Positions 14,995-48,969 of a stretch of DNA of 64,000 nucleotides are shown piece after piece. Made by a program: the position numbers and the translations under genes. The stretch comes from Amoebophrya sp. A120 (taxonomy: Eukaryota; Protista; Dinoflagellata). The stretch spans positions 7,145,146 to 7,209,145 of the forward strand of contig CAJINV010000004.1 in NCBI GenBank assembly GCA_905178155.1, written 5' to 3'. Each line of letters opens with the position of its first letter. Position 1 is the stretch's first letter. The notes beneath the pieces were generated by a model that did no database searches, was not told the origin of the DNA, and saw only the letters and a list, made by a program, of their open reading frames with translations.

Positions 14995-15380
14995 ACAATC
15001 CTATTTTTGATACATAAGCAAGAGTGAATGAATGATTTACCCAGAAGATCAGCACGTCATCATAACACATCAGCGCGTGTCGCTCTTGTTTTCCGTTTGA
15101 TTTCATCTTTCACGATCACGAGCCAAAATGCGTTCCAACGCGAATCTTTACAAAACGACCCTGATGTATGATTTTTACAAACCTAGTATGGGTATGATTC
15201 ATAGAACAAACTGTATCAATACTTTGACTCCACGGTCTGTTTCTCTCTCTCTTTCTCTCTTAGACACGAAGTCATTCTTAAAGATGTTTTTTTCTTTCAC
15301 GAGACCAAACGAACAATAGCAAACGTGCTTCCAAGACCAACTGCGCATTCGCATTTTCTTTTCAGAACAAGGAAACTCAT
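14995..15380. repeat. ~380-bp direct repeat, copy 1 (copy 2 at ~17165-17535)
   Basis: Shared TTGTTTTCCGTTTGATTTC...CACGATCACGA...TTTACAAAACGACCCTGATGTA...AACTGCGCATTCGCATTTTCTTTT. Confidence 0.8.
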
Positions 15381-15559
15381 CATGTCAGGATGCTCTAGTG
15401 GTACATCCATTTGTTTCTTCATATGTTCATTTTCAACAACAAAGTCAAGCAGGTCAAAGTTGTCTTGTCCGAAAGTGCTAAGTTTAATCTCATAGCATCT
15501 CCTACAGTGAATTGCTTGGCTTCGCCGGCTTGTTAGCAGTGCGGACGCACTGACGCAAG

Positions 15560-17101: not shown

Positions 17102-17851
17102 TATAGAGTTCAAAATCGCTAAGAAAATCGCTGCACTTCTAACCCCGAGAAGACAACACAAAACGCTTTTTTTGATCCATAAGCACAACACATCAACGCG
17201 TGTAGCTATTGTTTTCCGTTTGATTTCCTTTTTCACGATCACGACCCAGAATGCGTTCCAGCGCGAGTCTTTACAAAACGACCCTGATGTACGAGTTTTA
17301 CAAACCTAGTATAGGCAATGATTCATTGTTAAAAGCACCAACTAAACTGTATCAATACTTTGATCCCACGGTCTGTTTCTCTCTTTCTCTCTCTCTCTCC
17401 TTCTCTCTTTATACACGAAGTCATTCTTCAAGATGTTTTTTTCTTTCACGAGACAACGACCAAACGAATAATAGCAAACGTGCTTGCTCCAACACCAACT
17501 GCGCATTCGCATTTTCTTTTTGGAACTCATCAGAAGAACTCGTCCTTCAGGGAGGTCTCATTCTCAGGGCATGTCCCTGCTCTTGACGAATTTTATTTTT
17601 CTCCGGATTGTACTTCTTTAAAGCGAAAGCGATCTACTTGCTTGCCTTCGTATCATGAGAGGACGAGCATAAGTTCCAGGATCATTCTTCCTTGTGCTGG
17701 TGATGTCTTTTTTGTGTTGCGGTTTCAATGTGACCTCTTCTTTCAGCTCCTACAACTCTTTTTGGAAGTGCTAGTGTAGGTCGGTCTTCACCACTTGCAC
17801 TTCTATCTAAGTAAAAGGTCCTTCGTCCTCGTCCTCAACCAAGTCGTCCAC

Positions 17852-20800: not shown

Positions 20801-23781
20801 GTGATACACAGTACCGTTCTTGCTGTTGACACCAGGTTTGCCTCCTTTGTAGCTGCCCTTGTTTTTGTCATAGTAGGAGCTGTTCTTGTCGCCTTTGTGA
20901 TGTGGTTGGACAACTTGATTCGCTCCCGCTCCGCCATCTTGATGATTATTCTCCCCTCCATCCACCCCTGGTGGCAGTCCCTTCCTGTTTTTCTTCTTCG
21001 TTTTCTTCTTTTTCGGACCATTTGCAGTAGCGGCACCCAAAGGCTGGTCCATTTTTGCGAACAAGTACTCCCGCTTCACGGTGAACAGGTCTTTTTGGAT
21101 GTCCTTGTCGTTGAGCCGAGTTTCATCGGGAACGCCGAGGGAAGAGAAGGAATTCTTGTTTTTCATATTGTTTTCATCGCTGTTTTTCTCCTCGTCGTCG
21201 TCTGAATTGGCTGGACTCTCCGAGGGAGATAAATTGCTATTGAACACCGCGTCAATGTTTTGCTCCAGAATTCGCGTCACCACTATGCTGTGCAAAAGTA
21301 TCGTATTCGTATAAATGCAGGTCTTGCATTACAAATTTCTTTGTCAAGGCAAATCAGCATTACAAATTTTATTTCTCATGCTGAGAAAATTTGTAATGCA
21401 TTTATACGAGTACGATACTTTTGCAGTTCATAACCACCTCCGGCTCGCAATTCAGCAGTTGCGACATCGACAAGCCGTCCAACAGTGCGCCCTCGGTCTC
21501 CCGCAGCAACTCCGGCGGAACGCCGACGTAGAGTCCGCGCTTCCGTTTCGCCAGTGCGTTTTCCAGGGTCGCGATGATCGCGTTCGGCTTGTCAATCGTC
21601 GCGGGGGTGGTCGGCGTTTTCGGTTCCTTGGCGGGCGGCGGGGGTAACGTGAGGCCCCCGTTGCCGTCGAGGCCCGGGGCTTGCCGCAGGTCGGTCACGA
21701 CGAACAACTTGGGGAAGAGAGTTAAAATCCGCTCGGGTGAGAAGAGGCATTCGAAGGCGCGCTTCAGCAAGCTTACATCCGGTTCGAGGCCGATCTCATG
21801 CACTGTTTTGATGTAGTTTTCAATTTGACAAAACAATATTTTGTTGCTGCTGATTTGTTGACTATTCGCATTTTTCTACTAGGCATTCAATTTTAGCTCT
21901 CTTCCTTAGATGTTGAACGTACAAGAATTGAGTTCTTTGTCAGTGACTGCGAGGAAAGTCGAATGGTAAAGAAAAGCATTTCTACTTTTTTTTGCCCTCG
22001 TGCTTGATTTTTGCAATTAGAATCAATTATTTCACAGTTGAAATCAATACGTTTGACTTTGTCCTCGCATCCTTCCGGTTTCCCATATTTCGACCCCTGG
22101 GGGCCCCCCGTCTTCTGCGCTTCCGACAAGCTGGCCATCTTTTTTCGGTGGCGGAGAATGCTCCGCAGCAACACTTTCAAAAAGACATCCCGGACCAAAT
22201 TTGCCCGGTCCGCGAGGGGCTGGTTGTGAAACTGCCAGTCCGCAGATCGGTTCCACTCCAAGCAGACCTCGATCAACAACTCCCGATCCCGCTCCATGCG
22301 CTGCTTGTTCACGTTTCGGTTGCGTTTTTCTTCCTCCGTCTCTGGCTTAGGTTCCCGCTTGTTCGTCGTGTGTCTCTTGTTCGTGCTGTTGTTCCCGTGA
22401 GGTTGATTGTGGTCCTGATTTTCGTCGTGGTTTTGGTTATTTTGATTTTCCTCCTGCTCCTGCTGATCCACCTGCGTGTGATCCAGCATCTCGTCCTTTT
22501 CAGGCGCCGCGGCGGGAGACGAGGTGTCGCCCGCGGAATTATTGTTGTTATGTGCGGGAGAAGAGGATTGATTTGCACCATCTTCTGCGTCGACTTCATT
22601 GGGTTGTTTCTCAACATCTTTGGTTCCACCAATAGAGGACTTCTTCCGAGGAGGACCACCAGCACTTCCTGCTGTAGCCGTTCCACCGACCCCTGCTGCA
22701 GACAATATCACCTGGTTGGTCTCGGTGAGCCGCTCCGGGTGGAGCCAGTAGGTCAACCCAGGTAGGAGTTTCCGGACTTCGTCGTCGGCCAGCAACCGAT
22801 CTGGTTGCTTCAACGGGCGCTTCCCGCTGGTAGAAGGTTCTACTCCCGCTTCGACAACGTCCAGAATCTCGTACAGACGGTCCATCTATGAATTGCAAAC
22901 ATGTCTGGGTATCATGGAAAGGTTAAGAATCTGTATTGCGTGTCCACAATTCCTGAAAAATTTGTATTGCATAAAAGCAACAAAGGCACCACAACTTCGT
23001 CATGAAGCGTCGCAGTTTGTAATGCGCACTAAGCATCAGAAAGCGCTTGAAAAATTTGTCATGCTACACTTCACTTACAGGCGCACTCAATCATGAACAT
23101 TCAGCATTACAGATTCCAAAACCCAGACATATTTGCATTTGATACCATCAACTTGTGCTTCGTCTCCTGCCGTTCCTGCAAACGCCGCGCGCGGTTTTCC
23201 TCGGTGTTTTCAGCATCAAGGTTGTTATTTCCGTCATCATCGAACTCCGAACTCGACGCCGCCGGGGCCGACCGTTTGTTGCTCGCCATCTTTTTCGCGG
23301 ACGGCTGGCCGGAAGGACGCGGTGGTCTTCCTGGACCTTCGTTTTCCCCGTCATTCGCGTTCCCCGCTGAGTCATTACTATTATGCCGATTATTTCCATC
23401 ACCCTCTTCGTCTTCCTCGTTCCCACCAACATTTTGCTCCTCGTTGGAACTGTTTTGGTTGAAAATATTATTTTCCTCGTCGTCGTCAAAGATTTCTTGC
23501 GGAGGTTCCTCCTCGTCCTGCTGGTTGTTTTCCTCGACCACAATCTCGTCACCACCGAAGTACGGCTCCTGTGATAAATATGTCGGGTTGTAATTTCAAT
23601 TTGTGATTGAAGATGCGCTACCTATAGTTATACTCCCTTGAAAATATGCATGACAAACACAAACAGCACCGCACGTGTATTGAAAACATGAATGACAAAA
23701 AGCATTTTTTTTCCATACCTCGCTTTCCTCCAAATCGCTCGGAAGATCATCCGGCGGGTTGTTCTGCTCGATCACAGACAT
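17852..23781 (-). CDS. Large multi-exon protein with Gln/Gly/His/Pro-rich low-complexity C-terminus
   Basis: ORFs 23107-23541, 21893-22885, 21402-21836 and 17852-21295 join once elements 22887-23144 and 21284-21432 are removed (EPEVV-TRILEQ). Start uncertain. Confidence 0.7.
21284..21432. mobile_element. Introner-like TIR element, family B
   Basis: TATGCTGTGCAAAAGTATCG...CGATACTTTTGCAGTTCATA, TSD ACCAC. Confidence 0.9.
22887..23144. mobile_element. Introner-like TIR element, family A
   Basis: TATGAATTGCAAACATGTCTGGG...CCCAGACATATTTGCATTTGATA, TSD CCATC. Confidence 0.88.
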
Positions 23782-27092: not shown

Positions 27093-29220
27093 TTAAGCCA
27101 GTGTCGCGACGCACGTTTTTAGTGCGTCTGCGACGTCGCTGGATGCGTCTTTGCCCTTCAGCGCTTCGCCCAGGACGCGCTGTGCTGCCCGCCTCTTGCC
27201 GATCAGAGTTGTGTCTGACATCATGAGGCAGAAGCGGTGGGGCGTAGGAATGAAATTCACGGTCTCTTCTCGGCCCTCCACCAGGACGACAGACCTTAAT
27301 GTTTTCGGATTCTTTATTTGTGTAGATCTCGTGCTGCCCGACCGCGCAAATCATAACGTTTTGTCGCTGTTCTTGCGTCTATCATTTCACATACTTCTTA
27401 ATGGATCCCATGCAGGGTACACAACAAGAAATGGAAACTGAAGAAACGAAATCACATAGAAAAGTTTTTGAACTACCCGTCCTGCCCCATTTGCTGGCAT
27501 GCGTCTGCGGCAAATTTCACGACTTCTCCCTGCGATTTCTTCGCGACGCTGGGAATGTTCTGGCCGATCCTGGGCTCTTTCAGGAGCGTGTTGCACGTTT
27601 CAGAAACGAGGACTTGAGAACCTGAAAAACAATTTCAGTGAAGTTTACCAGCATGACAGAAGATAGCGTAGTCGGAAGTGTTTATGACAGATGACAAATG
27701 ACTACAACTTACACCTTAAAGCTAATGTATGTTAAACAGAGTGCCCGACCGATGAAATAAATGAATGTATCTGTATGACTTTTCTACCATCTGCTCTGGT
27801 GAGCTGTATGTCCCATTTCTCGTTGAATTTTCCGAATTTCAGATTCTTCATCCAGCCATCGAGGTTCTCCGCCGTCTATGTTCTGCAAAAGTATCGCACT
27901 CGTATAAATGCATTACAAATTTTCTCAGCATGAGAAATAAAATCTGTAAGTAATGCGGATTTACCTTAACAAAAAGATTTGTAATGCATGATTGCAATAC
28001 CGGTACAATACTTTTGCACAGGATACCGTCAACGCCTCGTCTATTGCCGCGACGCCGTTCTTCTCGCAGAAGTCACATATGGAAGCGTCAGGTTTGAAAT
28101 CGACAAAGTTGAAATGATTTGTCATGCTAAACCGACCGAAACCACTACACAACCTGTAAGGGCACCTCACCGCAGATGGTTCGGCCACCAGGTCGTGGAA
28201 AATCTGCATGATTTGTCATGCATAAAATGGATGCCAGTTGGAACCCAGTTTTCAAGTGGCGCATGACAAATTTTGGTGGTCCCTAAATCCAGTTTGTCAT
28301 GCTGTTTAGGCAAAGAAGACCGATTTTCTCATGCTACTTTAGCAGCTCGAGCTCTAACCTCAAACAGGCTCACAATCGGCCTCACTTGCCTGCTCTGCAA
28401 CGCACGTACCTCGGGTCATGCATTTTATGCATGACAAATCATTTCAACTCCGTCGATTTCAATTCTGACACTTCCATATCACAGGCTTGCACGGTAAGAC
28501 ACCGGAAAAGGTTACCGTTTGACCAGGTGACCGCAGATTTTAACTTTGCTTGGAGCTTCGCTACTGTGGTGCCCTTTCCCGTGCCGGAGAGACCAACCAG
28601 AACCAGGACACAACCTGCAGTTGGCGGTGGAGGTGAAATTCATTTTTGCATTCATGCATGAAAAATTGTAATTTCCTGCTACACGGCGACACTACACACA
28701 CTGCATCACAAGTTGTATTTGATCTGCCTCTATTACTCTTTCTATTTCTATACCTTTATCCGCTCCTTCCCCAATCGCCTTCAATATCTCTTCCGCAACT
28801 ATATCTGCTGACTTTCCCAAAACGTTGATTTGCGTGTACGGGTCTGGTTTCAGCGCCGGCAATACTCCCTTGTCCTGCGCGAATTTTATTCCGGCGGCCA
28901 GCGCGTCGCCGTCTTTCTGGTCGCGGGAAAGAATGTCCGTCATCTCCGCATCGGAGAGCTTTTTGAAGCAGCCATCCTCACAAAGTATGAAATGCAAATT
29001 ATCTTTCCCGTACAAGTACAACATGCATCACAAATTTCATCCATTTGGAGGGAATACTACTTGTCGTGCTAAACTAGGATCGAAGCCAAGTTTTGTCATG
29101 CAGAGACCGCATCTGTACGTGTACGGGAAATTTACTGTGGATACAAAGTAAATCAATCACACAGCTGGTCGCTACGTCGTCCTGAGCGGCGAGCGTGTCC
29201 CAGCTGAGACCCGCAGCCAT
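27093..29220 (-). CDS. Cytidylate-kinase-like P-loop nucleoside monophosphate kinase
   Basis: Reconstructed exons give VLVGLSGTGKGTT (Walker A), WSNGNLFR, NIPSVAKKSQGEVVKF and VEGREETV...KRRAAQR, in CMP-kinase motif order. Could start further upstream (~29583). Confidence 0.72.
27877..28025. mobile_element. Introner-like TIR element, family B (opposite orientation to 21284)
   Basis: TATGTTCTGCAAAAGTATCG...TACTTTTGCACAGGATA, TSD CCGTC. Confidence 0.9.
28078..28478. mobile_element. Introner-like TIR element, family E (401 bp)
   Basis: TATGGAAGCGTCAG...CTGACACTTCCATA, ~50-bp IR, TSD TCACA. Confidence 0.88.
28986..29143. mobile_element. Introner-like TIR element, family C (reverse orientation)
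   Basis: Reverse complement of the 30866 and 49803 elements, TSD CAAAG. Removal gives IDLLC-EDGCF. Confidence 0.88.
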
Positions 29221-30482: not shown

Positions 30483-33400
30483 CTATGCTCCCGCCGCGGC
30501 CTCCCCTGCTGGTCCGGCACCTGGGCCACCGGGTCGCGCGCCGACCAGGGTTAAATTGTTGTCCGTCACCCGCTATCAAATGCAAAAATGTCCAGGTCTG
30601 GAACTTTGTGATGCTGACACATGCGTCGCAAACAGACTCCAACACGCAGCTACGCATCAGAAATTTCTGAGTGGTTATGAGAAATCGCGTTTTTGCATTA
30701 CAGAAGGAGGTTGACGCTATCCAACAACATGCATCACAGAGTCTAGGGGCATAAGAGTTCAGCAATACAAATCTCGTATTCATCTTCCAGACCCAGGAGA
30801 CATTTTTGCCTTTGATACTCGCTCCTGCTCGCACGTGCGGTAGAGAATGTCCTCGTATTCTGCGATATCGACAGTAAATTTCCTGTACACGTACAATTGC
30901 GGTTTCTGCATGACAAAACTTGGCTTCGATCCTAGTTTAGCATGACAAGTTTTACACTCCAAATTGGTGTAGTTTGTGATGCATCTTGTACATGTACGGG
31001 AAATTTGTATTGCATATGCGATCATGTCGTGCATGCGCTCCTTGGCCTCGAAGAACATTTCCAATTCGCCGTTTGCCTCCAGGAACTGCCACACGTAGGC
31101 CTTGTGGTAGAAGAGCTTCAGAAATTTTTGGTACGTGCGCATAAACAGTGTCCTCGCCGTATCCTGAGTAAAAACGTCCCCACACCAGAGCTGTAATGCA
31201 GATTTGCAAAGACAAAAAGACTTGTGACGCGCACCCCCCATGAGAGCCATTTCCAATCGTGTTTTGGAATTTGTGATGCTGTGAACAGGATGAGCAGATG
31301 AATCTGTGATGCGGCTGCACTTGCTAACCTGCACTACACTGCATAGCGCAACTTGTCATGCGTGACTCACAAAACTCCTAGGTTTGTGTTGCAAAATCCT
31401 CATCCTGACTCTGGTGTGGGTACGTTTTTACTCAGGATACACCGCGGTGGTGTTCGCGAGTAAAGCGCCCTGACGATCGGATTTCGCCATGAAACCTGAA
31501 GTGAAGTGAAGTGAAGTGAAGATCGCAAGAGCAATGCTCAACTCAGTTCCAGGACAAGGCCAGGTTCTGGAGTCCCCGCCGGACCCGGTCCAGAAACAGT
31601 GAGGGGAGGCGGATATATGATGTGGTGATCACTCCAAAAAAACTCCCCAGACCGTGGACTAGGTAGAATCCCCGGCCTTTTGGCACTGCAGACCGAGAGC
31701 AGTAACAGGAGCACTGTTTACGCCCAGGTGGCAACCGAGCTGCCGGGAGTCCGGGTGGGGGGTCCTCCGGGCGCACACGATGTGAGAAACAACCGAGCGG
31801 CGACGACGCGACGAAACTTCACACACGACAACACGAGGACAGAAGCGAAGAAAACCACAGGACGCGGGGAACCTAAGTCCTAAGCCTAGCTGCTTTAGCA
31901 TATGCGGCCCAGCTATGCAGCACAGGTGGCGCAGCGCCAACTGGAGCCGTTAATTGGGATAACAAACGCTAGCGAATAAGTATTGTACGTGGGCTGCAGT
32001 TCCAAATTCACACCGCTACAAGTACAAGAAAGGAGCTAGCAAAGAAACTTACAAGGATACTATAACTATTGAAGAGACAAAATTCTATGGGAAAGCGAAT
32101 GTAAGTCACAACAGAGAAACAGGAGTAAATCAAAATCAGAGGCGATTATAGGACGCGCCACTGTGTCTGTGCTTGTAGATGTACAGGGCTAGCAAAAAAA
32201 ACCCAAAGAAGAGAAAAGCGCAGCGCTTCGTATGATCCTCTCACCAAACTTCACTGCGTCGAAAGTCGGCCAATCTGCTCGGAGGCACGGCAGCAACTGG
32301 GAGGCGACATCACTGAGCACTCATAGTGATATCTAGCACGGGCGGTCGCTCCGCGACCGCCGGGAGTTGAGCACTCATAGTGATAGTGTGTTACTCATGT
32401 AGGTGGAGTCATACTATTCGGGCGGCAATAAACGGGGAAAACGGGACACAAACAACAACGAACCAACAGCGCTCGCCAAGCGCACAGCTTGATCGGGTGA
32501 GGTAGAACAACTACACAAAACCGCGGCACGCTGGAACAACAACCAGGGGAGACACAAAGCAAAGAATCTCGGAGCCTTTGGAGCCCCGCGCCTGGGAATG
32601 GTTTCAATTTGCCAGACTATGGGCGGGGAGTCTGGGAATGGTTGGTAGTTTGCCAGGCGAAGTGAAATCAGCTATCTAAACAACACAGGGAGAGAACGCC
32701 CTAAAAATAAGCGGTGGTGTTCGCGAGTAAAGCGCCCTGACGATCGGATTTCGCCATGAAGCCTGCGAGTGGGCAGTAGATTGAGTATTTTCGTCATGTC
32801 AACATTACTATCTAAACTGCAGCAGCTGGTCAAAAATGCAGGCGAGGGGTATGTTCGGGGGTATGTTCGGGGGTGTGTCAGGGGTATGCAAATGGCCGTC
32901 AATCACGGGCGGATTACAATTTTTTGGCGAAAAAGCAACAGGCGGGGTATAAACATACCCCAGACACACCCCAGACAGACCCCCGAACACACCCCAGGCA
33001 AAAAGTCCGAACATACCCCAGACACACCCCGGGCAGACTTTCCGACACACCCCGGGCAGACTTTCGGACACACCCCGGACACACTTTGGGACCTCGCCAC
33101 GCGAGATGTGCAATGGCGGGCTCCAGTTTGTCACGCGAGCCGCCACCCTGTCGAGCTTCCCGGGCCCCGTTGGCAAGGCCCAGGGACGAAAGGCGCCCTC
33201 GGTCAGCGCGGGGACCCGGTCCCCGCGTCATGACCTGGGGGCCAGATTTGGGCGCTTCCCGGACACCGTACGGCCCAGGGGCAAAAGCCCTAGGTCAGCG
33301 CGGGGACTCGGTGTCCTCACCGCGGTGGTGTTCGCGAGTAAAGCGCCCTGACGATCGGATTTCGCCATGAAACCTTCTGCGAGTAGGATGTAGGTTCAAT

Positions 33401-35946
33401 ATTTTCATCATGTCATTTGTCATGCGCATCATTTGAAGTGTGTGTAAGTAATAGTGATTCATTCTGTCATGCTGATACAACAACATGATGAGTAAGTAGA
33501 AGGACCTTCCGGCACGTGTGGGGGCTCCGCAACTGCTCCGATTTTGAAGCCACCATGTCCCAACCACGGCAGAAATTTCAAGCCCTCCCGGTGCCCACCG
33601 CTGGGGTTCATGAGCTCCTGAATCGCAGCCGTGCACTCCAACGGTTGAATAGCCAGGTGGATCTGATATTCATATTTGTCATCTTCTGCATGTAGAAATA
33701 TAATGCTGCACGCATGAAGAAGATGTCTTGTATGACAGCACGAACTACATGAACAATCTGTCATGCTACAAAAACTTCATAAAGACAAATTCTCTTACGT
33801 ATCCTTCCGCATCCTCGCTCCCGTCGCCAATCACCTCGGTTAAGTGGTCCTGCAAATCTTCCTTCTTCAATCGGTCGAACCCGCGCATCAAAATCGAGCA
33901 CGCCAAGTACCGGTTCTGTTTCAATTTCCCCGGCCCGATATCCGCGAGGAAGTTCTTTTCCTCGAACAGGTCCGTGATCAATTCCCGCGTCGTGAAATTC
34001 TCGTGCTTTGCCCGGGACGGGTGGCGCACCGTATGCATCGCAAAAGTATCGCACTCGTACAAATGCATTACAAATTTCCTCAGCATGAGAAATGACATTT
34101 GTAATGCTGATTTACCTTAAGAAAAAGATTTGCAATGCATGATTGCAATACGAGTATGATACTTTTCCACAGGATACACCGGCGATAAGGACAAAATCGG
34201 ATAGCGGAACTTCACCTCGGGAACCATATTCGTGACCACTTCGTCCAGACTCGCGTTCAACTGGGTGGCGAACCGCAGCGAGGTGGTCGCGGCAGACACC
34301 ATCTGGGCGATAATCATATGCAACGCAAAAGCATCGCACTTACGTAGTAGTCGCAATCATGCATCACAAATCTCCATTGCTATACCGAGGCGAAACAGCA
34401 TGACAAACCCCATTTCTCATGCTGAGCTAATTTGTGATGCAATTGCTACTAGTACGATAATTTTGCTAAATTTTTGCAATGCATAAATTCGGTTCAAATG
34501 CAAAAACGTCGGGTGCTTCACCTTCAAGTTCTCCCGGCACATGCGGTAGGCGGCTTGGTTATCCAACACCATCGCCAGGTCGACGTTCTCCCGGGTGTAG
34601 GCCGTTGCGAACATGCAGTTGTAGGGCTCGACGACCGAGGACACGTAGTCCTGCGAGGGGTAGACGAGCGGTTGCATGATCACCTTTTTCGCGAACTGCG
34701 CCCGGGTATTGAGAGGAAATCTATTGTTCCCGTACACGTGACGTCCAAATGCTGCTTCTGTGTGACAAAACTTGCCGCGGCCTTCGAGCTTAGTCAGCAT
34801 GACAAGTTTGTTGACATCACTCCAAGCTAGAGAAATTTGTCATGCAGTTTGCACATGTACCGGAATGAATTTGTATTCCATAACGGAGGGTGTCGAGCAC
34901 TTCCACGCCGACACCGGTCCCGGTCCCGCCGCCGAAGGAGTGGAAGACAAAAAACCCCTGTAACGACTGACACTTGTCCACCTCCTTTCGCACGGCATCC
35001 ATCACCGACTCCTTGATTTTGTATTGGTTCGAAGCGGACCGCCCTTCAAAAAAGTTGGACCGTATGGTGAGCAAACGCGTAGTACTAATAGTCGCAGTCA
35101 TGCATTACGAATCTCGTTCTCAGGGTAAATCCGAATGGCAAATTCCATCATTTGTCATGCCGAGCTAATTTGTAATGCACTTACTACTAGCACCACGATG
35201 CAACTATTGCAATTCATAGACCGGCAGTCCTGTTTGTACGCCAGGAGCGAATCTGGGTGGAAGGTTTTCCCGTGCGAGGCATTCAATAAATCGATCCTGG
35301 TTGCGGGGTCGGTATCCATGAACACCGCGCGGGGCACATGCTGGCCAGCGGCGGTCATCCCAGAGAAAAATTTGTAATGCCAAAATAAATACACAGAAGC
35401 ATGCCCCACGCCATGCTGTTGTGGATCATGCGCAACACAGACTTTTTCGTGTATTTATTCTTGCATTACAAATATGACCCTTTTTTCCGTGTGATAGCGG
35501 TTTCGGCGAAAAAGGAGTTGAGCGGGTCATCGGGGAGCGATTCGCCGTGAATCTCTATCAACTGCAAATATGTCTGGGTCTGGAAGAATGCCAGACTTGT
35601 CATGCAGGTTTTCCATGACCCATGAGGTCTGGTATGTAGGACATAGCATGAGAGATTCTGTGAGAGTTCTACGATGCCTATTCTGCATGAGAAATTGCAT
35701 CTCGAAGATTAGGTCACACGTGGACAGCTTTTGGTAATCATGCAACACAAATCTTTCCCATGATTCACATTTAGCATGACAAGTTCCAACCTTCCAGACC
35801 CAGACATATTTGCAGTGCATAATCTCGTCCCGGGTACCATCGGGGAGGATGCCGTGCTCCTCGCACATCAGCTCCCATACCTGCAGACCGACCTGGCAAC
35901 CTGCCTGGCCCAGGTGGACCGTGATGCACTCTTTCACCGGTGGCAT
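30483..35946 (-). CDS. Highly divergent alpha-tubulin-like protein, ~12 introns
   Basis: [35 protein letters not shown] (tubulin signature), [24 protein letters not shown]...SLRF, LANTTAV, FFEAKE...EYE. Confidence 0.85.
30574..30817. mobile_element. Introner-like TIR element, family A
   Basis: TATCAAATGCAAAAATGTCC...TTTGATA, TSD CCCGC/CTCGC. Confidence 0.85.
30866..31016. mobile_element. Introner-like TIR element, family C
   Basis: TATCGACAGTAAATTTCC...GGAAATTTGTATTGCATA, TSD TGCGA. Confidence 0.88.
31160..31439. mobile_element. Introner-like TIR element, family D
   Basis: TATCCTGAGTAAAAACGT...ACGTTTTTACTCAGGATA, TSD CGCCG/CACCG, 280 bp. Confidence 0.9.
31498..33310 (-). mobile_element. 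Nested long-TSD insertions in the tubulin gene, with (GAAGT)n tail
   Basis: Tubulin exon present three times (31440-31497, 32711-32765, 33311-33375). Pentamer tail at 31498-31521. GAACATACCC/GACACACCCC array at ~32845-33085. Confidence 0.7.
34032..34176. mobile_element. Introner-like TIR element, family B
   Basis: TATGCATCGCAAAAG...CTTTTCCACAGGATA, TSD CACCG. Confidence 0.88.
34317..34485. mobile_element. Introner-like TIR element, family B (older)
   Basis: TATGCAACGCAAAA...TTTTGCAATGCATA, degenerate TSD AATCA/AATTC. Removal gives LNRIIAQ. Confidence 0.8.
34707..34882. mobile_element. Introner-like TIR element, family C-like (older)
   Basis: TATTGAG...GTATTCCATA, degenerate TSD CCGGG/ACGGA. 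Removal gives DTLR-AQF. Confidence 0.75.
35063..35218. mobile_element. Introner-like TIR element, family B
   Basis: TATGGTGAGCAA...TTGCAATTCATA, TSD GACCG. Confidence 0.85.
35356..35496. mobile_element. Introner-like TIR element, family F
   Basis: CATCCCAGAGAAAA...TTTTTTCCGTGTGATA, TSD GCGGT. Removal gives [13 protein letters not shown]. Confidence 0.8.
35556..35821. mobile_element. Introner-like TIR element, family A
   Basis: TATCAACTGCAAATATGTCTGGGTCTGGAAG...CTTCCAGACCCAGACATATTTGCAGTGCATA, TSD ATCTC. Confidence 0.9.
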
Positions 35947-36789: not shown

Positions 36790-39700
36790 TCACACCGGGC
36801 ACGGCAATCCGCTGTCCCCCAAGGACACGTCGAAGCGAAACACATCCTGCCCACTGCCCAGAAACACCGTAAAATCTTTCGCGCCGCTCCTCGCTGCGGT
36901 TAGCGCGATGCGGTTGTCGTTTTCTGGTAAGTCTTCCGGATTTTTCATCACATCGGGGTCGACTTCATGCAGCTTCGGAAGTTTGTACTCCGCGAGTTGT
37001 TGGGGTTGTTGGAGCTGTTGGAATTGTTCTAGCTGTGCTGGGGATGAAATGTTGTTCTCACCTGCTCTACTGGTGGACTCCAATTTTTCCGGGTTGCTGG
37101 TTTCCGTGCGTGTAGTTGCCGCAGCAGATGTTGGTACTACTTCAGGTCGTACTGCCGGTGCTGTTTCCGACCTTGAAGTTGTTAAACGCGGTTCCTGCTC
37201 GTGCTCCTTTTTCATCACCTTGCTTTCCTGCTCCGTTGTTGTTGTCGAAGCTGCAACCGATGCTGCAGTAGCTTGCGTCTGACTCGTAGTACCAAGTGCA
37301 AGAACTTCACCTCCTACTCGGGCCGCTGAAGGAACTGGCGCTGGCGCTTCTTCTACTTCGCTACTACTTGTTCCGGCTTTCTCTTGCTCTCCCGAAAGAA
37401 CCCCCATGTTGATCCCGCCGTGTCGTTGCCCCAGCAAAACCCGTATCCTGTGCAAGAGTATCGCACTCGTATACGTATTGCAGTCATGCATTACAAGTCC
37501 TGTTCTTAAGGTAAATCCGCATTACAAATTTTATTTCTCATGCTGAGGAAATTTGTAATGCATTTATACGAGTGCGATGCTTTTGCAAAGCATAACCCGA
37601 TGCTGCAACCGCCAGTCATCCAGAGATTGATAGTTCTTGGACTGTCGTAACAAATCTCCCGCTTGCTGTATCGCAAGAAAAAACTGTTTCACTGTGAACC
37701 TGTGATGCAGAAAATGGAACACAAAACTTTTTGTCTTGCTACACATGCAAGGCATTGGATTTTCCAGCGTGTTTTCCCTTGGGAAGTGCGCATGACAAAT
37801 TTTCAGTGTCATGCGTAACAAACTTGTGATGCAGATCTTGCAAAATCATCACAGTGAAGCAGTTTTTTCGTGGGATATGCTGCTGCGCGTCCTGCAAGCC
37901 CGCCGCAAGCTCGTCCAGGTGCGCTGCTAATCTGCTGGCCTGCTCGCCAGCAGAGCTGAAGGAGGAGGATGAGGTGGTGGAAGCGTTTAGGCTTCCCTTG
38001 TCCTCATTCATGATCGCACTTCTAGCCGTGGTCGCTGCAGTTGCACCTCCTGCTTCAGCCTGCTCCGCTGTTGCAGTGTTTTTTACCTTTACAGCTGCCT
38101 CAGCCGCTGTTGATGGCGCAGCATCGTGTGAAAGAGCTCCCGCCCCGCCCGGTGCGCCGGCTAGTTCCATAGGTTCTTTTCGATCTTTCGCAAGATCCAG
38201 CTCCACTGCCAGTTCGGACTTTGCAGGATGTTGAGCATCAGCTTCTGCGACACCACCGGACTGTGTCTCGTCTCTTGCAGATGAAACAGCTGTACTGGCG
38301 GCAGTTTTCTTCGCTGTTGGCGAAGCAGCTGCCAACGACAACGAGGAAGGTGCTGGTACGGGAGGCGCTGCAGGTACTTCTAACACAGCGGGATTCGTAG
38401 TTTTTGATTTCAACATCAGGGGTCGTTTATCCGGATCTGACTTCACTTCCGAGGGCTTCCCACTGTCCCCAGCGGAAGATGCAGAGATGGAAGGAGAAGA
38501 CGAGGAGATCTGCTTGTCCAGCTGATTCTGGTCCTGTTCTACCACGACTTTCTTGCCACTCTCCGCCTTGGTCGTGGTATCCACTACCTGCAGAAAAAAC
38601 AGGAACGAATTCGTCCCGCCAGCGGGGCTTTCTCCAACGCCCGCAGTAGATTCGCCCTCTCGGGGGGCCGCGGTCGTGGCTTCCTCCTCATCCTCCTTCT
38701 TTGGCTTCCAACGGACCAGCGCGTCGTGCACAGGTATGAAAAAGGTGAAATGGGGTTTCTGACAGTCAACTGGCGCTGCATCACCGTACGTATAGATTGA
38801 TCGCGGAAATATAGGAATCTGATCTGAGAGGAAAAACACAGCCTCTAGTTTGATGGAACCCAAAGAGGGTCTCATCTTTGTTGGCGAATTCATCCCATAC
38901 ACACAAGTCGACATCAATCAGGTACTTCTACTTACATGGTACAACTGTGCGCCAATATCACGGTGACAACGCAAAGTCCCTACTTTTCACCGCTTTGATA
39001 ATCAGCGCTTTCACTTCGCTTGCCGGTGGCGCTGGCGTGGTTGTGGGTTGTGTCAAGTTTGTCCGCAAAAACTTGTACCAAATGCAAAAATGTCTGGGTC
39101 TGGAAGAATGCAAGTTTGTCATGCTTGTCCAGCATGACTCTTGAATCTGTCATGCATGAGCAGGAAAGCAGCCTCTTACCTGTCATGCAAAAACGCAGTT
39201 TTTCATGCGGGAAGCGCAACACGACATAGGAGCTCAGAAACTTGTAATGCGTGGCCGCGTAAGAACCCAGTGCGCCCACTATGCACGAACTAGCAGTTTC
39301 CAGACCCAGACATATTTGCAATACATAACTTGATTTCCGGCACCACCCCGTGCTCCAACGCTTCGGCAACCGGGGTTCCAGGTTCGCAGTCCGTCGAGTG
39401 GTCGACCAGGGTGAATGTGATGAGGTAGATGAACACCTCCCCCCAGGTCTTGAAGCACCCTTTCATCTTCTTGGCAGAAATCTTGCTGCCGCGGAGGAGA
39501 GCGACCTGATCGTGGTCCTGGTTCATCTTGTCTACACCAGCTAGAGTTGTACCTCCCACCTCCGCAGCTGCGGGGTCATTCGCGGTCGTCCCCGCCTTGG
39601 AGGACGTGGTCGTCGACACAGGACTCAACCCAGCGTCCAGGTAGTGGTGTGGCTGGATGGCGACGACGTTTGGATTTGATGTTTCACCAGGGACGTCGGA

Positions 39701-42211: not shown

Positions 42212-42319
42212 GCTTCGTCATGATCCGCTCCGCGTCTGTGTCGACCAGAATGCGGGGCGGCGAGGATTGCGATTGGTGTGCTAGCGCCAGCGCGCGGCGA
42301 GAAGAACAAGAAGACTCAT

Positions 42320-45300
42320 CATCATCCAAATCGGGCTACCCTGTGAATCGCCTTCCCGAAAAGCCCACGAAATCCAGTTCCAGACTCCACGTTTTTGCAA
42401 GTAGTCATTAATGCAGGCGGCGGCACCACCACGGTGGCGTCGAGTTATTTCCACTGAAAAATATTGCTTTTGCTTGCACGACCAGCACCATCCAAGTCCA
42501 ACTTCCACTTAGTACTATCGTGGTGAACGCTTGCTCTATGGCGCGTCAGCCATACAGCTTTTCGTTTTGTGGAGGAATCACGCGAATCACAGCTTCAGCT
42601 ACAGCTGAGTGTTGACTTCACAATTTAGAGCGTTACGCTCGACTCTATGCTTTCGCTCTTGCTCAAGAATACCAACATAAGAAGGCACTCATCACTACCC
42701 AATCATGCAGACGGAATGGATATGAGCAAGACTCTGGGGCTACCATTTTCCGTATCCCGCCAGAAACCTGTGCTTGCGAGACCACTGTGGGAGCTACTTG
42801 GACAGGTGGGTAATACAAGAATAATTGACATCAATCCAGAATGGACGGAGGAACACTTCCGTAGGCCTACATGCTTTTTTTTGGCGAGGCAAAACACTGG
42901 CGGCCAATTCTTACGGCTGCGGAAACCGGCACTGCTTAAAAATTCGCAAACAGGTCAACCCTCCTTGCCGGGCTGTGGCAGAGGGAGGGCGCACCCACAC
43001 TCAGGCGCACCCGGGTCAGAGCACCCAACTTCGCCTGGGCACTACCTTGCGGCGTAAACACTAAGGGCGGCCACAAACTCCAGGCCACGCACCAAAGGAA
43101 AGCCGCGGCGCAATGTGCATATCTGAAGCAAGGGCACCCCCCTGCGTGTCCTCCAAACAAAAGCCCCCCCGTGCCGACTGGTTGGCGCGCGCGACTGAAG
43201 GGTAGGCCAATAAATGGGCGCCGGGCGCGCGGGGGAGACCTGCCGGGCGCGCCTGCGTGTCTGTGTTCCCGCCGGGCGGGGGGCCCAAACGACGCCAACC
43301 TGCCGCCAGGGTGTGCAAGGCCGGACCGGCTGGCGCCACGCCAGGGCCGACGGGCCCGGGGAAGGGGCGGCCCCGCCCCCTTTCTTTGTTTGGGGCGCGG
43401 CAGGAGTGCCGGCGCCCGGCCCCCCCGCCAGGGAGGCCGGCCGGCCGCACAGGCGGCGCGGCGCGGCCCGGGCGGGGCCGGCTGCTCGCTCGCTGAGAAC
43501 ACGGGGCGGCCCGGAGAGAGTCGCCGGCCGTTTGGCTTTTCTTCCCTTTGCGCGGGCCCGCCTACTGGGCGGCCCGGCTCCTCCGCTGATGAACGCGCCA
43601 ACCTCCTCTCTTTTCGCCTCTTCCTTCGCCACTGCTCGCGTTCTTTCCCTACTGTAGGCGTAGTTTTCCGCCTAGGCCTAGCCGCGGCGGGGACACTCCT
43701 TGAAGCCGGGCAGCGCAACCGGGCAAAGTAAGGAGGCAGGCCCCATGCCCGCCGGCCGCCATTGCATGCCGCCCCCTGCTTCTTTCATACCTTCCTTCTG
43801 CGTGCTGAAGTGGAACTCCGCAGCGACCTCCTCAAAACTCAACCCTTCCTCCCCTAGCTAGTCGCGCCCGCGATCTTTGTCCGCCCGGAATTTCTGGGGA
43901 ATATACCAAGTCTACGGCACCGCTAGCGCCCGCGGCCGGCGCGCCCAGCCAAGCTTTGCCCGGTCGGCGATGGGGTCGGGGTCCGGTCGGGGGCCGGCGC
44001 CGGCGCAGCCCGATGGGCATGAAATTCACGCTGTTCAAGTTGAACCCGGCAGCGTCATCCGGCTTCCGGTCCTGAGGCCCAAGCTGCGTGCGCCGTCTGG
44101 AAAAGGCCGGGAGCCCAGCCACTTTGGGCCGGGCGGCATCCGGATGGGAATGAAGGCCCCGACCTCCCTTGGGCGCGGCCGAGGTAGGCAGCAAGGCGGG
44201 CGCCGGCGGCCCTTGGTTGTATCCCCTGGCCAGGTCAATGCAAGGAACGGGCAGGCTTTTCCCTGCTGCCATCGATCTTCTCCGCCAGCTTTCTCTGAGT
44301 CACAGCGCGGCCCTGGCGGCGTGGCGCACCCGCTTGGCGCTCGTTCGTGTGCCTTCCCGCGGGTCCTTCGTCTCGTGTCTTTCAGGAGCGCGGGCGGCTA
44401 GGAGTGGTCGCGCCATACAACCAAAGCCCGCGGCGCTAGCTTCGGGCCGGCGCGCCCCGGCTACGGCGAGGGGGGGGGGGGGCGCTTCCCACAACGAGCC
44501 CGCCCGCCCCACCATCCTGCCGGGCCCGGTGGGGGCTACTTCGTTCCGCAGCCCGATAAATCTGACTGCGCGGGTCCGCTGGCTTTCCGCGGCCGGGGGC
44601 CGGCGAGAGGAAGGGGGCCCCGGGGGGCCGGGACCCGCAGAAGCGGCGCGGGCCACCCGGGCCGCGGCCTGGAGCACCCTGCAAATAGGGAACCAAGAAC
44701 CACGGGGGCACGCTTATGATCCAACAACACTGGTAAAACCGTGCACACGTGTCATGGAAGGCATTAGCCAAAGAACAAACATTAATGAACATTGACGGGG
44801 CCTCAGCCTTTACCTTTCAAAGGCCTGTAGGCCAGTAGAAGTGCTTGATGACTGTTTTCGTTGTGTAGCATAAAAACCCAGTGCTTAATGAAATACTGCG
44901 CACGGCGATGGGTGCTTCGTCTTCGTTGGTTCGTCTTTGTTCTTCAGAATCTCGGTTTAGAAACAAAAAACCTAAATCGTACATAGGCGGACAGTGTCTA
45001 CTTCTCACAACTTGCAGCCATTCTGTATTCTCGGAATGAACAGCAACATTCACATTGGCGGTAGTTTTTGTTCTCGGAGAAAAGATGTCTTCATAGCGTA
45101 GCACTTGACTCTTTCGTCCAGCGAGCATTTCAACAACTCTCCGTTCATCGTCGAGCCCACCGATCGTTCTTTCACAGCAAGCGCGCTGAGCACGATCCCT
45201 GCTGCAGCTTCATCCTTGAAACAAGTAGTTGGTGGGCTCCCGCTGTTCACCTCAGGTCGGCGCCGGAGTCGTCACCGGGTCCGGTTTGTAAACAAGAAGA

Positions 45301-47700
45301 CTGATCATCATCCAGATCGGGCTACCCTGGGGATCGCCTTCCCGAAACGCCCAAGAAATCGATATTCCATGTTTCTGCACCTTTCACCATATCGGGGTGA
45401 ACGCTTGCTAAAACATGGCGCGACAGCCATACAGGTTTTGTGGAGGAATCACACGCCTCACAGCTGAATGACCTCACAATTTAGAGCGCTACGCCCGACT
45501 CTATGCTTTCGCTCAGGCTCAAGAATACCAACATGAGAAGGCACTCATCGCTAGCGCTACCCAATCATGCAGACGGAAACGGAATCAGATCAGATCAGAT
45601 CAGATATGGCATGGCATGGGGTGATGTGATGTGAGGGGGGCGGTCCAGAACTTTAAGAGTGCAGCTGGAGCTTTCATGAGCTAAAACTTGACCACGCTTA
45701 CTGTACTAGTAGAGGTTTGGCGTGTCGGAACTTTAAGAGTGCAGCCGACTTTTTCATGAACTAGAGCTCGACCACGCGTACTATTCTAGTAGAGGCGGCT
45801 AACAGTGATGCTTGTACCCCGCCCGCGATACAAATTCCCCGGGCCGTATAGCATGCCTATTGGGTGGGACTGGGAATTTCGGCCAGAATTGGGTGGGGGA
45901 GATAGTTTTTTGTAAATACTCATAAAGAGTAAGTTTACAAATGCTCGCTCGAAAGCGGCGGTAGGGACGTTGTGTAACTAGAAAAAAGCGATAAGGAAAA
46001 AAAGATAAAAAGGCTTTTGCGCTTGCTTTGATATGCAGCAAGATTCTGCCATTATTTTCCGTATCCCGGGAAAGGCCTATGCTTGCGAGACCGATGTGGG
46101 AGGGAGCTACTCGGACCGGTGGGAAGACTGAACACAAGAATGATTGACAAGCAATGGACGGAGGAACACTGCAAAAAGCCTACTTGCGTATTTTTGACGG
46201 AGCCAACCATTAGTGGCCAATTTCGACTGCGAAAACCGGCCATCCGTGCCGGGATCGATGTGGCAGAGGGAAGGCGCACCCGTACGGGCACGCTAAACAC
46301 ACTCACACAGACAAATCCAGGTCAGGGCACGCAACCTCGTGTGGCTCAACGTACATTCGGAATCCCTCCGGGGCCATGCCGCCCCCAAAATATTTTTAAA
46401 CACCCTTGGCGCCCAGTAACCGCACGCCGCCAAAGGCATGCAGGCCGTGGCGCAAGGCGTTTCAGGACGCGCCCGCGTGCTCTTGTATGTAAAAAATAAA
46501 GAAACAGCGGCGCGGCCGAGCGCAAATGCCTCGGGTAATATTGAAGAAAAAGAATGAAACAAAACACGGCCGGGCGGGCCAGGGGCTGTCAGCGTGCTAG
46601 CTTCGTGCCGTCCCCCAGACGCCCCAACTTCGCCCCAGCCCGCAGTTCCTGCGCCACCCGCCCCAAGCCGACAGCGGTGAAGCCGGCCGCGCGTGGCACA
46701 TCGGTAGCGCAGTCGGCCCCGGAGTCTTCCGCGCTGGGCGTGCGTCTCGCTGATGTTGTCTGTCGACGCAGGAGCTGCGCGCGCCCTCCAGGAGGGTCGC
46801 GCCCGTCGTGCCGTTCGCAGGATCTCCGTCGTAATCGCCCCCGCACAGTCGGCCCATCGGTGAAGCCCGGCGCGCGCGGCCGGCGGCAAGGGCCATGGCG
46901 ATAGTTTGCGACATCACTGCCCGGCACCGGGCAGCCCAGCTCCGGAACCACGATAGGTACGCAGGCGCCCCCCCTAGGCTACGTCGTTCCTGCCGTTCAA
47001 ACGCACTCTCTGGGGCGCGGCGAGCGTCCGCGCGCCGGGCGGCACAGGCAAGCGCGCCATACTGCGTGGCGCCGTTGATAGTCTTCGAATGATCTTTACT
47101 TCATGGTGGAGAGTTACAGTTCAAAGCCTTTGAACATCGGCGCAGAGACGTCGTCTCTACGAAGAAATCTGCGGCAGGTACTGAGGCCCTCCATCTCCAT
47201 CAACAAATTAGACTGCAAAAAATAGCGTGGAGAATTTTCATTGTCAATTTGTACGAAAAAACCTTTATCAATAATTGTGCACTGTGACGCCTGGTTGATG
47301 TCCAGCATCAGCTGATTCGTACACGTACTTCTACTTGCGGTTTTGGTTCAGAAACAGAATAAGGATGAGAAAGCCAAAATCCTACATGGAACGTTTACTC
47401 AGCCACTCTGTATTCTCGGAATGATTAGTGTGTCTGGACGAGGTTTATCTTTTTCTTTGCTCTCGTGGAAAAGGTCGCAGGGTCTTTTAGTCACGCATTG
47501 CTTTTTCCACCATCTCCAAAGCCTCCCCATTTCTCGTCGTTCATCTTGCAGCCCACGTAATGTCGCCAGCAGCGAGCCACACTAAGTACGTAATTCCTGG
47601 TGGACGTGGAGCAGCAGTAGGAGGAGCTTCAATTGACTGTAACTGGCGTGCTACTGCTGTTCACCTCAGGTCGGCGCCGGAGTCGTCACCGGGTCCGGCT
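42320..47700. repeat. Degenerate tandem segmental duplication with GC-rich insertions
   Basis: ~42320-43040 is homologous to ~45305-46350, and ~44900-45290 to ~47300-47700 (CTGTTCACCTCAGGTCGGCGCCGGAGTCGTCACCGGGTCCGG in both). Confidence 0.75.
45580..46030 (-). mobile_element. Insertion with compound pentamer tail
   Basis: Absent from the paralogous site at ~42717. Begins (ATCAG)n(ATGGC)n(GTGAT)n and has an internal ~80-bp tandem repeat. Confidence 0.65.
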
Positions 47701-47803
47701 TGTACCACGGCACGTCTGGACAGTTCACTTCCTGTGCCTTATCCAGATTCACGTCAAACCTGATAGATGAAGATTAGGATTTTTACTCGGCGGGGCTAAT
47801 TTT

Positions 47804-48841
47804 TTAGACCAGAAAATCGGTCGAAGTACATGTTTTTTTGCGCATCCCCGTGCAATGGGGGTCACTGGCGGAGAGAAGTTGGGGGGTGCGAAGACGCGAC
47901 CGCGTTCCGGGCTGCTTTACCCCGGAAAAATTGGCCTCCGGCGTTGCGGCGGGGCGGCCGGGGCCGGGAAGGGTCGGCCTGACATGGATAGGAAGGCGAC
48001 GGCACGCAGCCAACACTTCGCCACCCGATCCGCGCGAGGCTCACGGCGGGGATGCACAGCCGACTCGGCGTGCATCCCGGGGCCCCAACTCGAAGCCCGC
48101 CCGGGGCCGGAAAGGCTTTTGCTCTGGCTGCGTCCGGGCGCGCCTTCCCCCATCCGGGGCCCCGGCCGGCGGGTGGACTGCATGCCCTTTGAAAGGCGCG
48201 CACGCCCCCCCCCTTCCGGGGGGGGGAAAAGGGGGGGGGCCGAATTCGCCCAATTCGCTACCCCTTTTGGGGGGGGGGTAAAATGTGCCCGGTTCTGGGC
48301 CATTTTGCCCCCCCCCTGTAGCATCGGGGGAAGGCCATTTTTTGCCCCCCCCTAAAAAGGAAGCAGAATTACGCCAATTCGGCCCCCTTTTTACCCCCCC
48401 CCCCGAAGGGGGGGGCGCGCGCGCCTTCCGGGCCCCCCCTCATTGCCCCCAACTTGGGGGGCGTTGGCTTGGGCCGAAGCCGGGCCAGCCCAAGGGGCGC
48501 GCGCCCTACTGCTTCGGAGGCCGGCCCCTCCTTTACGGCAATCAGGCCCATGCGCGTCCGGCAAAAAACATGGCGGCGGCGCACCGCCCCGACATTGCCA
48601 GGCCCGTGGGAAAGCCGCTTGGCGGGGCGGCGCTTCTCGCTCTGGGCGGGCTTCGAGGCCGGGAGGCCGCCCCGGCTCTCTTTGACAAGCCACAACGCCC
48701 GAGCCGCTGCATGGCGCAGCGAGGTCCTCGGGCCGGGTGTGTTGCGAGGGCATCCCGCCGCCCTCGAATTGAAACGAAATCGGCCCGCCATGCCAGCGGG
48801 TGCGCGAAAAAGTATGTACTTCGACCGATTTTCTGGTCTAA
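47804..48841. mobile_element. 1-kb GC-rich MITE-like TIR element
   Basis: TTAGACCAGAAAATCGGTCGAAGTACAT...ATGTACTTCGACCGATTTTCTGGTCTAA (28 bp perfect, ~45 bp imperfect), TSD ATTTT. Confidence 0.88.
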
Positions 48842-48969
48842 ATTTTGAACTGAATTTGCGGAGAACCACGTGAAAGCGGCACAAATTCGAAATTCATGTT
48901 TTTTCTTCATGCACAAGAATCACAAGAACCATAAGAAGATCAACCAAGAATATTTCATGCGTTTTGTTT

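What the first reader, a model, noticed from the sequence alone, without database searches (positions are those of the whole stretch)
31440..33420. Tubulin exon triplicated by nested long-TSD insertions; the pentamer tail creates a new splice acceptor
Seen: the exon [18 protein letters not shown] occurs three times. This fits insertion X (~32801-33310, ~105-bp duplication) followed by insertion Y (31498-32710, ~54-bp duplication). On the coding strand Y ends CTTCACTTCACTTCAG directly before GTTTCATGG: a pyrimidine tract plus CAG at the same position as the original AG. Inference: the insertion neutralises itself by duplicating the exon and supplying an acceptor, a second route to intron gain or to alternative exons.
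Basis: partly seen in the sequence, partly recalled or inferred. Interest (0 to 1): 0.72.

Follow-up and report, generated by a model that had tools for sequence, protein, structure and literature searches.

The report
Triplicated tubulin exon, silently spliced out
In a marine parasite's tubulin gene one exon stands three times, likely because two stacked insertions each copied it together with its existing splice junction, yet the spliced transcript carries a single normal copy, so the insertions are likely harmless and no new intron is gained.

Summary
The triplication is real, and removing the inserts by coordinates restores a 105/102-nt duplication around X (509 nt) and a 55-nt one around Y (1,212 nt). 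The gene is a divergent alpha-tubulin; one exon is 100% identical to an Amoebophrya sp. A120 protein, and most of its introns are hairpin introners. Spliced contigs of four runs (one sample) carry one normal exon copy. Copy 2 is excluded as the main exon; copies 1 and 3 give identical mRNA, so junction reads cannot separate them. Copy 3 is favoured: that route uses only a GT-AG intron and a hairpin introner, whereas the copy-1 route needs a 2,163-nt intron with neither. The pentamer tail did not make the acceptor: CAG stands in the same register in copy 2, so it came with the duplicated target. Intron number is unchanged and no alternative exon was seen. Y lies on unique DNA contigs and has no ORF of note, X is high-copy repeat, so they are not one family. 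This is a long-duplication variant of known splice-site recruitment from target duplications. Unexplained: copies 1 and 3 are identical while their adjoining intron ends differ by about 18%.

The parts
33506..33662 (-). upstream tubulin exon, ends at the GT donor of 33505
   Evidence: joints and contig pieces
33374..33505 (-). original 132-nt GT-AG intron with a 6-nt direct repeat at both junctions; absent from a distant genomic ortholog
   Evidence: L005 continuous here
33311..33415 (-). left copy of the 105-nt duplication: 42 nt of intron end plus exon copy 1 (33311-33373); lacks the introner
32802..33310 (.). insert X, 509 nt, 62% GC, internal tandem and inverted repeats, high-copy in DNA contigs, no pentamer or poly(A) tail; read-through from copy 1 hits a stop
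32711..32801 (-). copy 2: diverged intron end (7 mismatches and a 3-nt deletion against copy 1), CAG acceptor at 32765-32763, exon part with one synonymous change
31499..32710 (-). insert Y, 1,212 nt, no long ORF, on unique DNA contigs, no end pairing; likely the 3' part of a retroposed element
32314..32385 (-). third nested level inside Y: 36-nt piece (32332-32367; GC hairpin followed by CTAG) of a multi-copy family between exact 18-nt direct repeats
31497..31521 (-). (CTTCA)5 tail; its last CA overlaps the duplicated target
31440..31498 (-). copy 3: CAG at 31498-31496 and exon 31495-31440; likely the exon in use
31155..31439 (-). 285-nt introner, terminal inverted repeats 31 of 32 nt, 5-nt direct repeat with one mismatch, multi-copy family
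31017..31154 (-). downstream tubulin exon; its first 7 nt (31154-31148) are the end of the X duplication
30861..35946 (-). divergent alpha-tubulin-like gene, ATG at 35946, 10 joints seen in this span; continues below it

Best explanation
One tubulin exon stands three times and the spliced transcript holds it once, likely because two successive insertions each duplicated a long target that already contained the exon's AG|GT splice junction, and the cell likely splices to the last copy. Inferred order: repeat fragment X went in with a 105-nt duplication (intron end plus exon); then Y, likely a 5'-truncated retroposed piece primed on a CA match to its (CTTCA)n tail, went into the right copy with a 55-nt duplication, and a 285-nt introner entered just behind. 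Because each duplication carries the old acceptor, the donor at 33505 can reach copy 3 either directly (2,010-nt GT-AG intron) or in two steps (the old 132-nt intron, then a 1,878-nt GT-AG intron from the regenerated AG|GT at copy 1); the introner is then removed by its hairpin as usual. Shown: geometry, transcription, single normal copy, non-use of copy 2 as main exon, acceptor inside the duplication. Inferred: order, retroposition of Y, use of copy 3.
For: Flank reconstruction aligns end to end. Spliced contigs with one copy and 0 differing letters in 4 of 4 runs of one sample; the protein is colinear with orthologs here. The copy-3 route gives the same mRNA. All 7 non-GT-AG joints elsewhere in the gene, and the 285-nt introner, pair their ends (z -3.3 to -12.0), while the 2,163-nt intron of the copy-1 route does not (z -1.3) and has no GT-AG reading in any of 9 registers. 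The only GT/GC/GA-AG cut inside the copy-1/copy-3 identical block is 33373 to 31496. Pentamer tails are on record for LINEs (PMC3747384, passages).
Against: No read or contig shows a part-spliced form joining 33506 to copy 3 with the introner still in place (0 such joints listed; contigs drop rare forms). The direct route must pass two nearer acceptors. Y has no second copy in the DNA run laid at 88% likeness and no reverse-transcriptase ORF, and its 3' fold is weak (about 1.9 s.d.), so retroposition is unproven. X has no tail. Copies 1 and 3 differ at 0 of 63 exon positions while the intron ends differ at 7 of 39 (P about 0.016 under one functional copy), which a single old duplication does not explain without conversion or use of both copies. 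The published survey found end pairing in only 30% (or 68% by profile) of non-canonical introns, so unpaired non-canonical introns do exist.
Confidence: 0.55

Rival explanations
1. Same history, but copy 1 stays the working exon: the old 132-nt intron is spliced as before, and X, copy 2, Y, copy 3 and the introner leave as one 2,163-nt non-canonical intron, readable as GA-AG inside an 8-nt direct repeat.
For: This is the joint the aligner reports (31147 to 33311); GA..AG is one of the 9 registers; GA-AG makes up 1.5% of RNA-supported introns in A120 (PMC7789003 Table S4); the nearest acceptor is used.
Against: The joint is identical in sequence to the copy-3 route. It would be the only intron of the gene that is neither GT-AG nor end-paired, and the introner keeps 31 of 32 paired terminal bases.
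Confidence: 0.2
2. The 105-nt overlap is not a target duplication but a repair scar: the left part of the gene was copied from another allele lacking the introner and was joined by microhomology into repeat X; only Y made a true duplication.
For: Explains the diverged intron ends beside near-identical exons, the synonymous nature of the one exon change, and the lack of the introner after copy 1. X-family contigs run on to 33312-33313, a 2-3 nt overlap with copy 1, and X breaks off inside a tandem array.
Against: Needs alleles about 18% apart in introns with 0 synonymous changes between copies 1 and 3; copy 3 shares the copy-1 base, not the copy-2 base. Other long exact direct repeats around inserts in the window (18, 23, 30 nt) suggest duplication at insertion is common here.
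Confidence: 0.15
3. One reading: the pentamer tail itself builds a new acceptor, giving a new intron or alternative exons.
For: The tail gives the richest pyrimidine stretch of the acceptors compared (15 of 19, against 12 and 13), and its last CA coincides with the CAG.
Against: CAG is present in register in copy 2; a confirmed GT-AG intron of the gene works with 6 of 19 pyrimidines; intron count is unchanged; no alternative form listed in 4 of 4 spliced runs.
Confidence: 0.07
4. Assembly artefact: the exon was written three times around collapsed repeats.
For: X is high-copy and no listed contig bridges its junctions; run X1 may be the source sample.
Against: Unique DNA contigs cross both Y junctions with 0 differences; copy 2 has its own diverged intron end; contigs break exactly 30 nt into the shared blocks, as a real repeat would cause.
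Confidence: 0.03

Closest known systems
Splice-site recruitment from a duplicated AGGT (transposon insertion into a protosplice site; tandem genomic duplication; PMC3443670, PMC3265369, passages)
   Same: A duplication containing AG|GT supplies the splice site, and the insert leaves the protein unchanged.
   Different: Here the AG|GT is an existing intron-exon junction, the duplication is 55-105 nt with foreign DNA between, it happened twice in a stack, and no intron is added.
Dinoflagellate introners: Amoebophrya IR/DR introners (PMC7789003) and Polarella classes recruiting both sites from an AGGH target duplication (bioRxiv 2020.10.14.339549, passages)
   Same: Same lineage and gene context; 8 elements of this gene fit the IR/DR type; splice sites come from target DNA.
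   Different: Described repeats are 3-5 nt (Amoebophrya) and 3-8 nt (Polarella); X and Y have 105 and 55 nt, no paired ends, and Y is not multi-copy.
Non-LTR retrotransposons with microsatellite tails (UnaL2 TGTAA, RTE TTG; PMC3747384) and with long target duplications (rotifer R9, title seen only; nematode RTE-1, recalled)
   Same: Y ends in a pentamer array against a long duplication with a 2-nt overlap, and has no terminal repeats.
   Different: No reverse-transcriptase remnant, no sister copies, weak stem-loop; X has no tail at all.
Recursive splicing at AG|GT sites (recalled)
   Same: Removing the old intron would regenerate a donor with the same six-base junction as the original one.
   Different: No intermediate was seen; untested in this organism.

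Membership tests
Amoebophrya introner (285-nt element 31155-31439) | terminal inverted repeats | tested here: met
   31 of 32 nt; end pairing z -12
Amoebophrya introner (285-nt element 31155-31439) | 3-5 nt direct repeat at the borders and repeated in the genome | tested here: met
   5-nt repeat, 1 mismatch; 146 DNA contigs end loose at its border and a 70% copy at 8775-9054
Amoebophrya introner (X and Y) | terminal inverted repeats / end pairing | tested here: not met
   z +0.8 for X with the copy-2 intron end, -0.4 for Y
Amoebophrya introner (X and Y) | 3-5 nt direct repeats | tested here: not met
   105 and 55 nt
Introner in the wide sense (Y) | multi-copy element that creates new introns | tested here: not met
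   unique contigs at flank depth; intron count unchanged
Non-LTR retrotransposon or SINE (Y) | 3' simple-repeat tail next to a target duplication, no terminal repeats | tested here: met
Non-LTR retrotransposon or SINE (Y) | reverse-transcriptase ORF or homology to a known LINE/SINE | tested here: inconclusive
   no long ORF in six frames; no Rfam match; no eukaryotic repeat library on hand; a 3' UTR would show none
Non-LTR retrotransposon or SINE (Y) | dispersed sister copies sharing the 3' end, variably 5'-truncated | tested here: not met
   no further contig laid on 31474-32287 at 88% likeness in 1 DNA run; more distant copies are not excluded
Non-LTR retrotransposon or SINE (Y) | 3' stem-loop before the tail | tested here: inconclusive
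   -32.7 against -25.7 +/- 3.7 kcal/mol in shuffles for 103 nt; no signal for the last 46 nt
Helitron (36-nt piece in Y) | 3' hairpin followed by CTAG (feature recalled) | tested here: met
   9-bp hairpin then CTAG; 2 such ends in the window
Helitron (36-nt piece in Y) | no target duplication (PMC12130899) | tested here: not met
   exact 18-nt direct repeats flank it
Intron gain by AGGT duplication | duplicated block contains AG|GT giving a precise GT-AG intron | tested here: met
   33373-31496, 1,878 nt, the only such cut
Intron gain by AGGT duplication | a new intron splits a formerly continuous exon | tested here: not met
   the AG|GT is the border of an existing intron; no exon bases lie between
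Recursive splicing | intermediates or lariats at the internal AG|GT | not testable with these tools
   only contigs exist for the runs that hold the gene
Alpha-tubulin-like protein | Tubulin and Tubulin_C domains; nearest solved relatives alpha-tubulins | tested here: met
   Pfam above cut-off; all 60 listed of 171 solved-structure hits are alpha chains

The most novel reading that the evidence does not exclude
Amoebophrya has a recurrent insertion process that writes 18-105-nt target duplications around unrelated DNA; where the duplication spans an existing AG|GT junction it builds stacked recursive splice sites, so kilobase insertions in coding exons are spliced away stepwise in an organism reported to lack U1 snRNA, and both outer exon copies are kept identical.
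Probability: 0.15. Interest if true: 0.66.

Novelty: new variant of a known kind. Interest (0 to 1): 0.38.

Why it matters
It is a natural case in which insertions into a conserved, expressed gene are tolerated because the duplication carries the old splice junction along, extending known target-duplication splice recruitment from 3-8 nt to whole small exons. The locus offers a clean test of how Amoebophrya picks splice sites (nearest AG, hairpin closure or recursive steps), which is open for this lineage. It is a single locus, adds no intron and changes no protein, which limits its weight. It also warns that gene models and junction reads cannot tell such routes apart.

Tried and rejected
No whole genome is held, so the genome-wide search for tailed copies and their duplication lengths could not be run; DNA contigs were the substitute. 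Raw RNA runs X9-X11 (same species label): 151, 0 and 441 reads laid, all 90-95% alike, nearly all only in part and on repeat ends, none on exons; no test. No listed holder is on record as RNA; X3-X6 are guessed RNA, and are treated as such only because their contigs skip introns. Most of Y and X had no cover in X3-X6; not used as evidence. Rfam, 31000-33700, E up to 1: 0 matches. Y against phages and plasmids: no match. Hairpin-CTAG motif in viral contigs: 0. First metagenome scan used a wrong-frame query and is void; the repeat gave 5 loci, of which 1 (L005) was read as genomic and used. Earlier scan notes: nothing. Paper searches for AGGT plus target duplication, for RTE-1 long duplications and for long TSD with microsatellite tails returned 0 papers. 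A search of one PNAS data file for LINE, SINE, Helitron, RTE gave 0 hits and may have been the wrong file. Rejected: copy 2 as main exon; Y as copy of a cellular UTR still present in this genome (no second DNA contig); Y or X as hairpin introners; my 498-residue read-through C-terminus, which missed a last joint outside the laid stretch (the 514-residue record P0002 has it).

Full report
Setting. The locus lies in a minus-strand gene whose exon 34486-34701 is 100% identical over 72 residues to a 514-residue protein labelled Amoebophrya sp. A120 and 94% to one labelled A25. The protein has Tubulin and Tubulin_C domains above cut-off, and all 60 listed of 171 solved-structure hits are alpha-tubulins.

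Observation. The exon stands three times: copy 1 (33311-33373), copy 2 (32711-32762), copy 3 (31440-31495). Copies 1 and 3 are identical over 58 nt; copies 2 and 3 agree at 54 of 55 nt; copy 2 also shares about 40 nt of intron end with copy 1. Five simulated windows gave no exact repeat of 17 nt or more within 8 kb. A distant genomic ortholog (L005, 70% identical in this segment) is continuous across the whole region, so the 132-nt intron, X, Y and the introner are all likely later gains.

DNA evidence. One DNA run laid on 31400-33600 (it may be the source sample) covers Y with two unique contigs that cross both junctions without differences; summed depth over 31474-32287 is 42.5 against 42.6 in the unique flank. 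Over X it is 518 to 52,332, with joints that go back 44-104 nt, as in a tandem array. Depth here is no copy number, but the contrast is plain: Y has no sister at 88% likeness or more, X is a fragment of abundant repeats. The two are not one family. Inside Y a 36-nt piece of another repeated family (hairpin then CTAG) sits between exact 18-nt repeats.

RNA evidence. A 2,238-nt contig of run X3 shows 10 joints in the gene, among them 33371 to 33504 and 31147 to 33311. Runs X4, X5, X6 show the same first joint, the piece 33311-33371 with 0 differing letters, and a loose end that matches 31118-31147. These four runs are one sample of one study and are only guessed to be RNA; their skipped introns argue that they are. 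So the gene is transcribed and the main mRNA has one normal copy; the protein is colinear with orthologs here. Copy 2 would show its synonymous base and does not. Three raw RNA runs did not cover the exons and are no test. Reading from copy 1 into X or from copy 2 into Y meets a stop, so unspliced forms are dead ends.

Which copy. The route through copy 1 (132-nt intron, then 2,163 nt) and the route through copy 3 (2,010-nt GT-AG intron, then the 285-nt introner cut so as to keep its upstream repeat) give the same mRNA. The reported joint is therefore not evidence for copy 1. Of the other 9 joints, 2 are GT-AG and 7 are not; all 7 pair their first and last 40 nt far better than shuffles (z -3.3 to -11.4), as does the introner (z -12.0), while the 2,163-nt candidate does not (z -1.3) and has no GT-AG register, only a GA-AG one. 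GA-AG is 1.5% of supported introns in A120 (PMC7789003, Table S4 read). This favours copy 3 but is indirect; the same paper shows that many non-canonical introns lack described inverted repeats (passages). A two-step version is possible: the only splice-type cut inside the identical block is a 1,878-nt GT-AG intron from 33373 to 31496, the donor regenerated once the old intron is removed. No part-spliced contig joining the upstream exon to copy 3 plus introner was listed; contigs drop rare forms.

The acceptor. Copy 3 has CAG at 31498-31496; copy 2 has CAG in the same register at 32765-32763; copy 1 uses AAG at 33376-33374. The 55-nt match between copies 2 and 3 includes the CAG, so the acceptor came with the target; the tail's last CA overlaps it, as priming by a short match would give (inference). 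The tail raises pyrimidines to 15 of 19, against 12 and 13, but a confirmed GT-AG intron of this gene has 6 of 19, so a tract is not required. In no route is an intron added between exon bases.

What Y and X are. Y has a pentamer tail, no paired ends and a long duplication, which fits retroposition; LINEs ending in short repeats are on record (PMC3747384, passages), long target duplications by the rotifer R9 element I saw only as a title, and the RTE-1 case is recalled (searches found nothing). Against: no ORF, no Rfam match, a weak 3' fold, no sister copy. X has no tail and breaks off in an array with a 2-3 nt overlap, which also fits break repair. Other exact repeats of 23 and 30 nt frame a nested arrangement at 61540-63718 that ends in the same hairpin-CTAG motif before a gap, so long duplications are not confined to this gene, though the gap limits that case.

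Unexplained. Between the two flanks of X the intron part differs at 7 of 39 aligned positions plus a 3-nt deletion, the exon part at 0 of 63 (copy 3) or 1 (copy 2). With one working copy the chance that none of 7 changes falls in the exon is about 0.016. Gene conversion, use of both outer copies, or an origin of copy 1 from another allele could explain it; I could not separate these.

Known context. Recruitment of splice sites from a duplicated AGGT is an established route (PMC3443670 and PMC3265369, passages); Polarella classes do it with 3-8 nt duplications (bioRxiv 2020.10.14.339549, passages; its supplements are closed); Amoebophrya introners have 3-5 nt repeats and U1 snRNA was not detected (PMC7789003, passages, section 10 and part 3 of its supplement; its figures were not visible); A120 introners attributed to non-LTR elements are mentioned in PMC12130899 (passages; its data files may hold relevant families that I did not find). 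My searches showed no report of exon-length duplications of this kind in Amoebophrya; the library lacks many journals.

Verdict. Real feature; nested long-duplication geometry and a normal transcript are shown; the tail-made acceptor, intron gain and alternative exons are not supported. New variant of a known kind, interest 0.38.

Noticed in passing
window 61540-63718: Second nested case: about 1.95 kb (ending in the same hairpin-CTAG motif as the piece inside Y, then a 100-N gap) between exact 30-nt repeats (61582-61611, 63562-63591), framed by exact 23-nt repeats (61540-61562, 63696-63718). The gap may hide or cause part of this.
   Followed up: partly
window 32314-32385: A 36-nt Helitron-like 3' end flanked by an exact 18-nt duplication, although Helitrons are described as making none; the family is repeated in DNA contigs and appears in the spliced runs.
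   Followed up: partly
window 1275-1378 and 1514-1615: A 104-nt direct repeat at 82% with 135 nt between; possibly an older event of the same kind.
   Followed up: partly
window 15061-17526 and 54868-58226: Long diverged direct repeats (about 310-340 nt at 82%; about 690 nt at 67%) each enclosing an intronless ORF (581 and 335 residues) with no Pfam match; LTR-like or retrocopy-like.
   Followed up: partly
window 42305-48900: GC-rich stretch with several repeated blocks (42305-42930, 45015-45578, 46030-46240, 47400-47704) and a 45-nt inverted pair (47803-47847, 48798-48842); another inverted pair at 10778-10827 and 11626-11674.
   Followed up: no
window 33374-33505: The GT-AG intron before copy 1 has a 6-nt direct repeat and a short inverted end match, like an aged introner turned canonical; the distal AAG is used although a CAG lies 3 nt upstream.
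   Followed up: partly
window 30500-35946 and P0002-P0011: The gene belongs to a divergent alpha-tubulin-like family with an insertion near residues 330-380, shared with unnamed relatives at 53-88% identity; P0011 lacks exactly the triplicated segment and the next residues, probably a gene-model error at the same place.
   Followed up: no
window 28077-28479, 35556-35821, 21284-21433, 27885-28026, 34032-34177, 37444-37595, 49803-49953, 53466-53621, 59447-59599: Many members of at least three introner families share 77-92% identity within the window.
   Followed up: no
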